Assembly: GCA_013115125.1 (NCBI GenBank) | Contig: JABANN010000205.1 | Location: 1-53,126 of the forward strand | Direction: 5' to 3' | DNA: 53,126 bases | Source of the DNA: Perkinsus olseni | Lineage: Eukaryota | Part shown: one piece after another, positions 26,801 through 29,800 of the stretch | Position numbering within the stretch: the first letter of the stretch is position 1 | Layout: each line of letters begins with the position of its first letter | The notes under the pieces: model-generated | What the model saw: only the letters and a program-made list of their open reading frames with translations | Told to the model about the DNA's origin: nothing | The model's database searches: none | Position numbers and translations under genes: made by a program

Positions 26801-29800
26801 TCCGAGAAGGAGCAGAAGGCTAGGTTTGAAGCAGAGAAACAACGAGCACTGCAGCAACGGGAAGATGTAGGTCTCGAGCTCGATCCGCAGGTACTCCATT
26901 TCATATCTTCTGTAGGGTGTCGCCGAGTGGGCGAACAAATGTGATGAGCTCACGAGGACCATCAAGATGATAAAGGAGGAGCACGAGAGCGAGCGAGAAA
27001 ATTTAGCCAGGGAAGTAAGTTCCGGCCGGAACTTCGTGGCTTATGTGCGGCAGGACAGACTCTCTATCTCATTGTTGTTGGCAGTTGTCCGCATCAAGGA
27101 CTCGACTCACAGACAAGGAAAGAGAGATTGATCAGCTAGCAGCCACGTGAGGGACAAGGCGAACGAAGCTCGCGTTTGGCAGGATACCCTGTTTCAGTCA
27201 CCGTTCGGAGATGGGCAAACTGAGAGACGCACATAAGAGGCATAGAGCGGAGCAGGAGGAACAGTAAGTTATCTATTTGGCGACCGTCAGGGACGTCCAT
27301 CTGCGATTTTTCCTTGTCTTTTGCAAGGGTTCCATTCGCGTTACGCCAACGGTAGTACCGTGATAAGCAGCGTCACGGTACTTATTATACTCATTATTGG
27401 CACCGGGCGGCGGATAATTCTGTGTGACTTCACGAGTTCGAGTTGGCGGCGGAAATTAGCGCTTGTTTAAATTGCATCTTGCATCTTTGACAGAGCCATC
27501 AAGTATAACCTCACAAAGATGCTTCCGGCATTCTTCGTGCCGTGCTACAATGTGGGGGTTCGCAGCATCTTGTTCGAAACGACCAAGGTCTAGGAATTAA
27601 CTCAGTTCATAACTTGTTCAACGACAGAACTAGAAGTGTGACTTTTCTCTGAGGTTTGTAGCAGTACTATTCGACCTGGTCCTCCGCTATCCGCAGTGAC
27701 GGTGTCTCATAGATTGGATCGAGCCGCGGCCTCGGGCAGGGCCATACTGGAGGCAGAGCTTCGAAAGAAGCAGCAGGAGTGAGCCACTAGGGTCGAACTT
27801 TCTATAGGACCAGCTCTGTTAGGCACGAATCGGCCTTGCGAGATCTCTCCGCATCTCACGCCTCCGATCGGGACAGCTCTCTCATAGAGCTACATGAACA
27901 GTACGCTATCCTGGAACGTGGCGAGTCATCTTTTAAACTCACCTCCAAGATACAAGAAAAAACTGGAAGATTGGCAGAGAGAACAGGAAAATCTCTTGAG
28001 AGCGAAAGAACGCCAGTAGGAAAGTCCACATTTGGTCTACACTCAAGGCTGCGCTCGGGATTAGGCACGATGAGGTCTTGCGGGGTCTGCGCGAAACGCA
28101 TCGTCAGCAGCTCGAGGATGCTCACCGTGAGTGGCAGGATGCGTAAGTGGTTGGAAGTGTGAGCATCTCTGAGACGAACTTATCAGCCATCGGTCCGCAC
28201 TGGATGATCATAAGGAGAATCATCAGAGAGCTACGCAGGCCCATGAAGAGTGAGTATCTCAGTCCGACCCCGTCGTCGATGAGTCGTCGATTCCGGACAT
28301 TCCAGGCATATAAGTCGACTCAAGGAGCGGCTAAGTGAACATCAAGCGATTTTGGAGAGCAAAGACCAAGAGTGAGATAAGACACGATCATACAAAACTA
28401 TGCAAACTATTGGTCCTGCGTGAAGTCATACTCGTTTTTGGAAATCGTATGTCGTATCTTCACGTGAGTCTCACGTGAAGATACCGACCGCTCTCACGTC
28501 GTGAGAGCGGTCGGTTTGTTCTTGTAATGGTCGGTTCCAGGGTAGCTGTGTGCTCTCTTCTGTTTTGTTGGGTATTTTGCTCGCCCTGTAGACACGCTGG
28601 GATCGTCAGTCAACTGCGAGAAACTCACAGGAAAGAGTTGGAAGCCATTAAAGGAGAGTGGCAGCACAGGTGGGTGGAAAATTCCATAAGAATTGTGCAG
28701 ATGTTAATCTCTTAGGCACGACAACATCGTGAAAAAACGAGTGACAGAACACGCGGGAATGCTCGAGTTGAAGGAGAAAGAGTGCGTTACGCTCACACTG
28801 CCTTTCACTATGGTGATCGGTTGTGCAGGCATCAAGACGAGATCCGCCGAAGAGCTAGGGAGCACGAAGAAGCGCTTAAGCGGAAGCAGCTAGAGTAAAC
28901 TCGAACGATTCATGGCTTCGTTTCGTATCTCTCGAACCGTCGACCTCTGATTTTTTACCTATGATCTCAGGTATGAGACAGCGATTTCACGGAGAGAAAA
29001 GTCGGCTGATGACATGAAGGGCGTAGTGGAGAGACTAGAGCAGAAGTAGCTTATCCCTGGAGATAACGAATTGGAAGGGGTGCTTCTGCTCAGCATTCAA
29101 GACTTGAATGGAAAATTGGAGGAGGCTCGGGCGCAGGCTCATGGGCGAACCGGTGCGCTCGAAGCCCAGTGGAGCCGGCACACCCAGGTAGCGCCTCTCC
29201 TCAACTCTCTTGTCGGCCAGGAGGCGCTAGCGTGGTAACAAACTGTGAGTCCTCCCTGTCAGGAGCTCAAGCAAGCGTTTCTACGGAAAGAGCGCGACCT
29301 GACTCGGAAATTTGATGGCCGACTTGCTGAATTGCTTGCGGAATACAAGAGTCTTCATGCAGATCATAACGAGCTGGTAGAGAGTAAGAAGGACGTTGAG
29401 GCGGAGCTCCAGTTTGTAAAGAAAGAGAAATATGAAAGTGAATCGAAACTACAGGCCTTGCGGACGATTACCGAAGGGGAGCTGAAAAAATTGCGGACCG
29501 AGCTGGCTCGAGAAAGGCTGCGATGGACGAAAGAGATCCTCCCGCAGAATTTGGGAGTCATCATGCGAGAAGTAGAGTTCCTTTATGAACAGAACCAAAG
29601 CGATGTAGCTCAAGTAAGAGGTATGCGACGAATCATAGCGTTAGTTGGACGATACTTGGGGCAGCTACTGCCGAAAGGAACGGTCGACTTGAGAATATTC
29701 GTAGATAGCGATGATGTTGATGAAGGAGGTGCCTTATGGCGAGCTTTGCACTGTGGATTCGGCGGGTTGGAGAATATTAAAAACGCAAGCGAAGACAAGC

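What the first reader, a model, noticed from the sequence alone, without database searches (positions are those of the whole stretch)
27198..29045. Second exon array in the same gene: phase-2 exons alternating 66 and 78 nt, with His at 11-residue spacing
Seen: exons 27198-27263 (66), 27713-27778 (66), 27823-27900 (78), 27950-28015 (66), 28065-28142 (78), 28306-28371 (66), 28592-28669 (78), 28716-28781 (66), 28829-28894 (66) and 28971-29045 (75) are all symmetric phase 2. Most start with His or Tyr immediately after the junction, and the His-initial ones have a second His 11 residues later (HDEVLRGLRET-HRQQ, HAGIVSQLRET-HRKE, HQDEIRRRARE-HEEA). The 66+78 pair forms a 48-aa super-repeat three times. 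Inference: a hendecad-type coiled coil built by duplicating an exon pair. It may be a cytoskeletal or flagellar ruler-like protein regulated by the C-terminal EF-hands, or pH/metal-sensitive through the His ladder.
Basis: partly seen in the sequence, partly recalled or inferred. Interest (0 to 1): 0.7.

Follow-up and report, generated by a model that had tools for sequence, protein, structure and literature searches.

The report
Histidine-ladder hendecad rod from duplicated mini-exons
Eleven tiny same-phase exons of a Perkinsus gene each encode one copy of a 21-26-residue helical repeat with a conserved histidine every 11 residues, together forming a long non-heptad helical rod between calcium-binding ends; the structure is real and unusual, but its function is still unknown.

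Summary
The exon array is real. One more exon (28187-28249, 63 nt) was missed, so there are 11 exons of 66, 66, 78, 66, 78, 63, 66, 78, 66, 66 and 75 nt, flanked by 12 consecutive phase-2 introns. Three lines of evidence agree: a spliced alignment to the P. chesapeaki orthologue, the public P. olseni protein that matches this contig, and spliced contigs of one public run (5 of the 10 array-internal junctions).

Each exon encodes one in-register repeat unit. All 8 His-initial units have a second His 11 residues on. His lag-11 pairs number 11 against 1.7 expected (0 of 5000 shuffles). Hydrophobic residues peak at 3.66 residues per turn (11/3), in phase with His, and the heptad signal is weak. 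All 16 ladder His are conserved in P. chesapeaki, with no indel over 256 residues at 62% identity. AlphaFold2 gives one 194-residue helix.

So a hendecad rod built by tandem exon duplication is supported. Strict 66/78 alternation and a contiguous 48-residue super-repeat are not. Oligomeric state and any pH or metal role of the His ladder are untested. No relative of the array was found outside Perkinsus, and no paper describing it.

The parts
22755..30268 (+). Whole gene: 27 exons, about 981 codons. It equals the public P. olseni hypothetical protein P0033 (EF-hand domain-containing) and is the orthologue of P. chesapeaki P0001.
   Evidence: Spliced alignment, revised with the X1 joints. Identical to P0033 for residues 1-655. 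Names.
27198..27263 (+). Array exon 14: 66 nt, phase 2, 22-residue unit with His at positions 1, 12 and 15.
27713..27778 (+). Array exon 15: 66 nt, phase 2. Divergent unit that starts with Leu and has no His.
   Evidence: Donor joint 27778>27823 seen in an X1 contig.
27823..27900 (+). Array exon 16: 78 nt, 26-residue unit (11 + 15). It holds the only predicted helix break, about 27857-27874.
   Evidence: AF2 break at array residues 56-61; coordinates by my arithmetic.
27950..28015 (+). Array exon 17: 66 nt, unit starting with Tyr. In P. chesapeaki this unit has His at position 12.
28065..28142 (+). Array exon 18: 78 nt, 26-residue unit. Its closest relative is exon 21.
28187..28249 (+). Array exon 19: 63 nt, 21-residue unit with His at positions 1, 8, 12 and 19.
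   Evidence: Found by the spliced alignment. Present in P0033, P0032 and P0001. Flanked by a 44-nt and a 56-nt GT..AG intron.
28306..28371 (+). Array exon 20: 66 nt, His at positions 1 and 12.
   Evidence: Joint 28371>28592.
28592..28669 (+). Array exon 21: 78 nt, 26-residue unit.
   Evidence: Joints 28371>28592 and 28669>28716.
28716..28781 (+). Array exon 22: 66 nt, His at positions 1 and 12.
   Evidence: Joints on both sides.
28829..28894 (+). Array exon 23: 66 nt, His at positions 1 and 12.
   Evidence: Joints on both sides.
28971..29045 (+). Array exon 24: 75 nt, divergent unit starting with Tyr. The periodicity changes from 11/3 to heptad here.
   Evidence: Joint 28894>28971.
29094..29211 (+). 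Exon 25: 118 nt, the last exon entered through a phase-2 intron. Heptad-type coiled-coil segment.
22755..23573 (+). Exons 1-2: N-terminal EF-hand pair, most like the secretagogin/calbindin pairs.
   Evidence: Pfam EF-hand_7 at 43.7 bits against a cut-off of 30 on P0001. PDB 2be4 at E 2.2e-06 and secretagogin 6jlh at 8.9e-06. Joint 22868>23437.
29896..30268 (+). Exon 27: C-terminal EF-hand pair and the stop codon.
   Evidence: Pfam EF-hand_6 at 32.2 bits against a cut-off of 25.
24489..26353 (+). First exon array of the same gene: six phase-0 exons (five of 69 nt and one of 90 nt), each a 23- or 30-residue unit with a Gly-Asp-Pro turn followed by a short helix.
   Evidence: Joint 24329>24489.
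28372..28591 (+). Intron 20: 220 nt against 44-76 nt for its neighbours. It contains two adjacent near-perfect hairpins at 28454-28521.
   Evidence: Spliced out in an X1 contig.

Best explanation
The region is the central rod of a Perkinsus-specific protein that has an EF-hand pair at each end. Eleven mini-exons arose by tandem duplication of a 66-nt exon, always broken at the same point of the same codon. Each encodes one unit made of two hendecads (22 residues) or of a hendecad plus a pentadecad (26 residues). Joined, the units form about 256 residues of proline-free alpha-helix; one stretch of 194 residues, about 29 nm, is predicted to be unbroken. Along one side runs a narrow seam repeating every 11 residues: His at position a, small or branched apolar residues at d, and Leu/Ile/Val at e. 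Position h is half apolar and half basic, and position k, just before each His, is acidic.

Inferred, not shown: two to four such helices pack along this seam into a nearly straight (non-supercoiled) hendecad coiled coil. That would put a His layer in the core every 1.65 nm, so that association would depend on His protonation or on a bound metal. The conserved length would set a fixed spacing between the calcium-sensing ends.
For: Exon structure. Ten of 10 exons are confirmed plus one added, 5 array junctions are seen in spliced contigs, and the model is identical to the public protein P0033.

Duplication: in-register homology of the units (10.9 against -8.6 +/- 1.2) and 12 consecutive phase-2 introns (permutation p 1.35e-4).

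Hendecad periodicity: peak at 3.66 with power 3.16, or 7.25 with His, against 0.51 at period 3.5. It is localised to residues about 419-616. The column-permutation control reaches it in 1 of 2000 and 0 of 2000 trials.

Register table: His at a in 16 of 22 segments; apolar at e in 18 of 22, at d in 13 of 22 and at h in 8 of 22; acidic at k in 11 of 21; no Pro.

Helix: AF2 mean pLDDT 88.6, helices at array residues 2-55 and 62-255.

Constraint: 62% identity to P. chesapeaki with no indel in 256 residues. Nineteen of 22 His are conserved, including 16 of 16 at unit positions 1 and 12.

Definitions: hendecad 11/3 = 3.67 and pentadecad 15/4 = 3.75 (passages of PMC4786415). Hendecads give three core residues per repeat and almost no supercoiling (passage of PMC11651203).
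Against: No test of self-association could be run. AF2 gives the monomer a confident straight helix without any partner.

The seam is thin and polar for a coiled-coil core. Only 28% of residues are apolar including Ala, and 43% are charged. Opposite-charge i,i+4 pairs are enriched (z 3.8), as in single alpha-helices.

His at a central core position is unusual, and position h is basic in 9 of 22 segments.

The orthologue and paralogue models are gene predictions. Five array junctions have no contig evidence. X1 also holds unspliced contigs, for example across 27901-27949.

The pH/metal and spacing ideas rest only on conservation.
Confidence: 0.6

Rival explanations
1. The array is a stable single alpha-helix (ER/K-like). 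It acts as a monomeric, stiff spacer that holds the two EF-hand ends about 30-38 nm apart and has no helix-helix core.
For: 43% of residues are charged and opposite-charge i,i+4 pairs are enriched (39 against 23.9 +/- 4.0, z 3.8). AF2 predicts a confident straight helix for the single chain. No Pro is present and few large apolar residues. The length is conserved without indels.
Against: E+K+R make up only 37% of residues. There is a strong, phase-coherent 11/3 stripe of Leu/Ile/Val and His, which a single alpha-helix needs no reason to keep. Position e is apolar in 18 of 22 segments and the ladder His are conserved 16 of 16.
Confidence: 0.2
2. The array is an amphipathic 11-mer ('3-11') helix that lies on a membrane or lipid-droplet surface, in the manner recalled for apolipoproteins, perilipins, alpha-synuclein or group-3 LEA proteins.
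For: It has 11- and 22-residue repeats with 11/3 periodicity. That 22-mer units coincide with exons also in apolipoproteins is recalled from memory, not tested here.
Against: The apolar face is only about 2-3 of 11 positions wide, with His at its centre. There is no Pfam match to any such family; only EF-hand families match at E up to 1, apart from one sub-threshold chance hit. Heptad coiled-coil segments flank the array. There is no Pro punctuation.
Confidence: 0.1
3. The array is an artefact of gene prediction: chance GT/AG pairs around open frames, not a translated array.
For: The public models are automatic predictions. No listed run is on record as RNA.
Against: Five array junctions are present in spliced contigs. 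The same 11 units with the same lengths occur in P. chesapeaki at 62% identity without indels. The units are mutually homologous.
Confidence: 0.02

Closest known systems
Hendecad (11/3) and pentadecad (15/4) coiled coils, as defined in the coiled-coil literature (PMC4786415 and PMC11651203, passages read). Tetrabrachion's right-handed coiled coil and the rotary-ATPase peripheral stalk are the examples I have in mind; the first is recalled from memory, and the second (PMC3293630) was seen only in a search listing.
   Same: Periodicity of 3.66 residues. Units decompose into 11+11 or 11+15 residues. The seam uses positions a, d, e and h. The helix is long and uninterrupted.
   Different: The central core position a is His in 16 of 22 segments instead of an apolar residue. 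The array is encoded unit by unit in same-phase mini-exons. Oligomerisation is not shown. There is no sequence relationship to any known family.
Designed haem-binding four-helix 'maquettes' (PMC9523718, passages read)
   Same: Apolar residues at a, d and e drive the bundle, and inward-facing His serve as ligands.
   Different: This is an analogy only. Here His recur every 11 residues along about 250 residues in a natural protein. No cofactor binding was tested.
Secretagogin/calbindin-type EF-hand pairs
   Same: The N-terminal pair matches them best (E 2.2e-06 to 1.1e-03) and passes the Pfam EF-hand cut-offs.
   Different: Those proteins are compact six-EF-hand globules. Here single pairs cap a rod of about 800 helical residues.
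Repeat proteins encoded one unit per symmetric exon (collagen, nebulin and spectrin types; recalled from memory, not tested)
   Same: One repeat per exon, introns at the same codon position and phase, and growth by unequal crossing-over within introns.
   Different: The unit here is a double hendecad of 22 residues, the exons are only 63-78 nt long, and the introns are mostly 44-76 nt.
P0028, an unnamed 560-residue protein from an environmental source
   Same: Same overall layout: an N-terminal EF-hand pair of the same type, a long helical middle and a C-terminal EF-hand region (E 5.7e-04).
   Different: By my reading, its middle part has no His ladder and no recognisable copy of the unit.

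Membership tests
Hendecad (11/3) coiled coil | Core-forming residues recur with a period of 11/3 = 3.67 rather than 3.5. | tested here: met
   Peak at 3.66 with power 3.16 (7.25 with His) against 0.51 at 3.5. The 99th-percentile shuffle maximum is 1.62. Column-permutation control: 1 of 2000 and 0 of 2000. The same peak appears in P. chesapeaki.
Hendecad (11/3) coiled coil | Positions a, d, e and h are occupied by apolar residues. | tested here: inconclusive
   Apolar residues at e in 18 of 22 segments, at d in 13 of 22 and at h in 8 of 22 (h is basic in 9 of 22). Position a is His in 16 of 22 and apolar in 5 of 22.
Hendecad (11/3) coiled coil | Continuous alpha-helix | tested here: met
   AF2 pLDDT 88.6 with helices at residues 2-55 and 62-255 of 256. 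0 Pro and 7 Gly.
Hendecad (11/3) coiled coil | Two or more helices packed along the seam | not testable with these tools
Single alpha-helix (ER/K) domain | Very high E/K/R content with i,i+4 salt bridges and no apolar stripe | tested here: not met
   E+K+R is 37%. Opposite-charge i,i+4 pairs are enriched (z 3.8), but there is a strong 11/3 apolar-plus-His stripe. The threshold for 'very high' is recalled from memory, not taken from a call.
EF-hand calcium-binding domain (Pfam PF13499, PF13405, PF00036) | Profile match above the curated cut-off | tested here: met
   P0001: PF13499 43.7 bits (cut-off 30), PF13405 40.8 (25), PF00036 29.2 (25.4). The window's C-terminal exon: PF13405 32.2 (25). 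Calcium binding itself was not tested.
Apolipoprotein, perilipin, synuclein or LEA type 11-mer amphipathic repeats | Profile match to one of those families, and a broad apolar face | tested here: not met
   No such Pfam family matches at E up to 1 on P0001. The apolar face is about 2-3 of 11 positions wide.
Tandem exon-duplication array | Symmetric exons of one phase, each holding one in-register homologous unit | tested here: met
   Eleven exons, all with lengths that are multiples of 3 and all entered and left in phase 2. Unit homology is 10.9 against -8.6 +/- 1.2. Exons 15 and 24 are too divergent to show it on their own.

The most novel reading that the evidence does not exclude
The His ladder is functional. 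In a straight two- to four-stranded hendecad bundle, the 16 conserved position-a His, each preceded by an acidic residue, would form a stack of inward-facing ligand layers 1.65 nm apart. These layers would bind Zn, Cu, Ni or haem, or titrate near neutral pH. The rod would then assemble, stiffen or fall apart in response to metal or pH, while the EF-hand pairs at both ends read calcium. This would be a lineage-specific, dual-input switchable fibre of the Perkinsus cell. Because all 11 exons are symmetric, any of them could be skipped in frame to give rods shorter by 3-4 nm steps.
Probability: 0.12. Interest if true: 0.7.

Novelty: new variant of a known kind. Interest (0 to 1): 0.45.

Why it matters
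Global (not just local) hendecad coiled coils are uncommon, and none with His as the regular central core residue turned up in my searches. Full-text searches listed 12, 12 (of 35 matching) and 1 papers, none on such a ladder by title or abstract start. A search for Perkinsus plus EF-hand plus coiled-coil returned 5 papers, none on this gene by title or abstract start. The one survey of hendecad families that I saw cited is not held and could contain a precedent.

If the ladder binds metal or senses pH, this would be a natural model for switchable straight helical bundles. It would also be a handle on an unknown cytoskeletal element of Perkinsus, a mollusc parasite related to dinoflagellates and apicomplexans.

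It is also a clean textbook case of a repeat protein growing exon by exon in a genome with 44-76-nt introns.

If the array turns out to be only a charged spacer, it is an ordinary lineage-specific coiled-coil protein.

Tried and rejected
Gene models
- A naive gene model that maximised open frame read through introns and was discarded.
- The orthologue-guided model invented an exon at 24055-24126. An X1 contig joins 23944 directly to 24270, so that exon was dropped. The same data added exon 24489-24557.

Sequencing runs
- No RNA holder is listed. The single run X1 is 'RNA?' by guess only.
- No joint was listed for junctions 27146/27198, 27263/27713, 27900/27950, 28015/28065, 28142/28187, 28249/28306 and 29045/29094. 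The bin 27037-27297 has no cover. These gaps say nothing either way.

Searches for relatives
- phmmer of P0001 against 1.84 billion representatives gave 29 hits at E up to 0.001. None covers query residues 420-620. Most match only the N-terminal EF-hand pair. The full-length Perkinsus proteins sit in clusters represented by short fragments, so close orthologues can be hidden.
- Word-based searches found only P0001 itself or the fragment P0002.

Other libraries
- Pfam: only EF-hand families.
- PDB by sequence: nothing on the array.
- ESM Atlas: generic coiled-coil look-alikes at 0.86-0.92 with no shared family, and TM under 0.5. These are leads only.
- Rfam on 22600-30400: one chance-level hit at E 0.7.
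- The antisense strand has no convincing frame.

Structure
- AF2 of exon 26 gives a long helix and then a low-confidence conserved part (pLDDT 73.6, with residues 137-172 under 50). No fold search was run on it.

Earlier findings of this scan: three look-ups returned nothing.

- The paper by Martinez-Goikoetxea and Lupas (2023) on hendecad families is not held.
- Intron positions in orthologues could not be compared, because no tool here holds Perkinsus genomic DNA other than this window.
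Full report
**What the window is.** The region has about 50% G+C and is split by many short GT..AG introns. The largest exon nearby (29263-29844) finds one protein, P0001. This is a 973-residue hypothetical EF-hand protein of Perkinsus chesapeaki, at 68% identity. 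A cluster look-up then showed a 956-residue Perkinsus olseni hypothetical protein, P0033, whose longest contig has the same length as this window, 53126 bases. P0033 is identical to my spliced model for residues 1-655. So the finding lies in an already annotated but uncharacterised P. olseni gene.

**Gene model.** A first model that only maximised open frame was useless. A protein-to-genome spliced alignment with P0001 gave 27 exons between 22767 and 30265 on the + strand. Contigs of one public run, X1 (kind guessed as RNA, not on record), carry ten GT..AG joints on this gene.
- The joints confirm introns 22869-23436, 26354-26794 and 26867-26915, and five introns of the array.
- They remove one exon that the alignment had invented (24055-24126).
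- They add a 69-nt exon at 24489-24557.

The revised model starts at the ATG at 22755, ends at the stop at 30266-30268, and has 27 exons and 981 codons. X1 also holds unspliced pieces: a contig running through 27901-27949, another through 29847-29895, and one inside the 449-nt intron. The run therefore contains incompletely spliced RNA or some DNA. The joints show that spliced molecules exist, not that splicing is complete.

**Checking the observation.** All ten exons of the finding have AG and GT at the stated borders and share one open frame, and all ten are reproduced by the spliced alignment.
- One exon was missed: 28187-28249, 63 nt, same phase, flanked by introns of 44 and 56 nt. It is present in P0001, P0032 and P0033.
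- The array is thus 11 exons of 66, 66, 78, 66, 78, 63, 66, 78, 66, 66 and 75 nt, entered and left through 12 consecutive phase-2 introns.
- Of the gene's 26 introns, 14 are phase 2, 12 are phase 0 and none is phase 1. A run of 12 phase-2 introns arises in 0.0135% of 200000 permutations of these phases.
- Every array intron cuts the last codon of a unit after its second base.
- The '66/78 alternation' and the 'three 48-residue super-repeats' are therefore only approximately right. The 26-residue units begin 48 and then 69 residues apart.

**The repeat.** Cut at the exon borders, the units are 22, 22, 26, 22, 26, 21, 22, 26, 22, 22 and 25 residues long.
- They are homologous in register. The mean ungapped pairwise score over the first 21 positions is 10.9, against -8.6 +/- 1.2 when each unit is shuffled (maximum of 2000 shuffles -4.0).
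- The closest pairs are exons 20-22 (score 45), 18-21 (43), 22-23 (34) and 14-19 (34). Exons 15 and 24 are too divergent to be recognised alone.
- From that matrix, similarity averages highest at a distance of two units, with strong single cases at three. This fits several rounds of duplication of one-, two- or three-exon blocks, but does not prove the 'exon pair' history.
- Some DNA similarity survives at exon starts, for example 27819-27846 against 28061-28088 at 79%.

**The histidine ladder.** The first full codon is His in 8 units, Tyr in 2 and Leu in 1. All 8 His-initial units have His again at position 12.
- In the 256-residue array there are 22 His. Pairs at lag 11 number 11 against 1.72 expected, reached by 0 of 5000 shuffles. 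Lag 48 gives 6 against 1.49 (p 0.0004).
- In P. chesapeaki, lag 11 gives 13 against 1.87.
- The two species' arrays align without a single indel at 62% identity (158 of 256). Nineteen of the 22 His are conserved, including 16 of 16 at positions 1 and 12.
- P. chesapeaki additionally has His at position 12 of exon 17's unit and at position 1 of exon 24's unit.
- The His at position 12 lie in exon interiors, so a splice-site constraint cannot explain them (inference).

**Periodicity.**
- The power spectrum of apolar residues over the array has its highest peak at 3.66 residues (3.16), against 0.51 at period 3.5. The 99th percentile of the shuffle maximum is 1.62.
- Counting His with the apolar residues raises the peak to 7.25, so His is in phase with the apolar stripe. 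P. chesapeaki gives 2.16 and 6.56.
- A tandem 22-residue repeat has a harmonic at 22/6 = 3.67. I therefore applied one random column permutation to all units at once. The observed power in the 3.4-3.9 band was reached by 1 of 2000 permutations (apolar) and 0 of 2000 (apolar plus His).
- A sliding window places the 11/3 signal at residues about 419-616 and a heptad signal at about 573-660, that is exons 23-25.
- Splitting each unit into 11 + 11 (or 11 + 15, 11 + 10, 11 + 14) gives 22 segments with this register table: position a is His in 16 of 22 and never charged; d is apolar in 13 of 22; e is apolar in 18 of 22 (mostly Leu); h is apolar in 8 and basic in 9 of 22; k is acidic in 11 of 21.
- These are the a, d, e and h positions of hendecads. 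The 15-residue halves fit the pentadecad. The definitions come from passages of PMC4786415 and PMC11651203.

**Structure.** AlphaFold2 on the array alone (single sequence) gives mean pLDDT 88.6 and two helices, array residues 2-55 and 62-255. The second is 194 residues long, about 29 nm at 0.15 nm per residue. The only break is in the second half of exon 16's unit. The array has no Pro and 7 Gly. The next large exon is predicted as another long helix followed by a conserved but low-confidence part. The protein is therefore essentially one long helical rod with an EF-hand pair at each end. The N-terminal pair passes Pfam cut-offs and is most like secretagogin and calbindin pairs. The C-terminal exon passes PF13405.

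**Distribution.**
- phmmer of P0001 against 1.84 billion representatives gave 29 hits at E up to 0.001. Four are short Perkinsus fragments, and most of the rest match only the N-terminal EF-hand module, which is repeated in proteins such as P0004, P0007 and P0008.
- No hit covers query residues 420-620.
- One environmental protein, P0028, shares the layout of EF pair, helical middle and EF region, but not the ladder.
- Word-based searches of 5.8 billion clusters found only P0001 or the fragment P0002.
- Full-length Perkinsus proteins are filed under short representatives, so hidden close orthologues, for example in P. marinus, remain possible.
- No Pfam, PDB or Atlas family explains the array.

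**How it most likely works.**
- Shown: a transcribed, conserved array of duplicated mini-exons encoding a proline-free helix with an 11/3 seam centred on His.
- Inferred: the seam is a helix-helix interface of a nearly straight hendecad bundle. The His layers make that interface sensitive to protonation or to a ligand. The indel-free length reflects a need to keep the register or a fixed distance between the calcium-binding ends.
- The main rival is a single alpha-helix spacer. It is favoured by the high charge, the enriched i,i+4 salt-bridge pairs (z 3.8) and the confident monomer model. It is disfavoured by the conserved stripe.
- A lipid-surface 11-mer helix is less likely, because the apolar face is so narrow and no such family matches.
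- Oligomerisation could not be tested.

**Novelty.** The gene and its exons are in the public annotation, as a hypothetical protein. Hendecad coiled coils and exon-per-repeat growth are both known kinds. What I could not find described is a long natural hendecad array whose central core position is His. Searches listed 12, 12 (of 35 matching) and 1 papers, judged by titles and abstract starts, with passages read of three. Nor did I find any work on this Perkinsus protein (5 papers, by titles and abstract starts). The 2023 survey of hendecad families is not held and may bear on this. I rate it a new variant of a known kind, of moderate interest.

Noticed in passing
window 24489-26353 (+): First exon array of the same gene. 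Six phase-0 exons (69, 69, 69, 69, 90 and 69 nt) each encode a unit with a Gly-Asp-Pro turn and a short heptad-like helix, separated by long introns (140-387 nt). Copy number differs between models: 6 units here and in P0033, 5 in P. chesapeaki P0001, and 4 in the other P. olseni protein P0032. This is either real copy-number variation or an annotation difference.
   Followed up: partly
window 28372-28591 (intron 20); hairpins 28454-28484 and 28477-28521: This 220-nt intron, among neighbours of 44-76 nt, holds two adjacent near-perfect palindromes (15-nt arms at 100% and 22-nt arms at 91% complementarity). It folds far better than shuffles (-87.1 kcal/mol, z -7.7, 0 of 200 shuffles as good). 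There is no Rfam match and no other copy in the window. It could be a small palindromic insertion or an intronic RNA.
   Followed up: partly
window about 29188-29211 and about 29614-29664: After residue 655 the public model P0033 differs from the orthologue-guided model. It leaves out the last 8 codons of exon 25 and a 17-codon stretch inside exon 26. All four sequences (this window, P0003, P0001, P0032) keep that stretch, with many invariant residues. An X1 contig runs colinear with the genome over 29498-30048. These are probably two mis-called introns in the annotation. Coordinates are my arithmetic.
   Followed up: partly
window 27431-27683, 27662-27997 and 29498-30048: X1 contigs lie inside the 449-nt intron 14 and run unspliced through introns 27901-27949 and 29847-29895. 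One of them is spliced at 27778>27823. The run therefore contains partly spliced transcripts or some DNA.
   Followed up: no
window 22755-23573; proteins P0004, P0007, P0008: The N-terminal EF-hand pair, with its following aromatic-rich helix, is a module that recurs 4-8 times in tandem in other proteins found by phmmer (410, 1098 and 822 residues). It looks like a family of multi-EF-pair proteins in which this gene carries a single copy.
   Followed up: no
window 27264-27712 (intron 14): This 449-nt intron lies inside an array whose other introns are 44-220 nt long. No repeat-like exon or convincing open frame was seen in it.
   Followed up: partly
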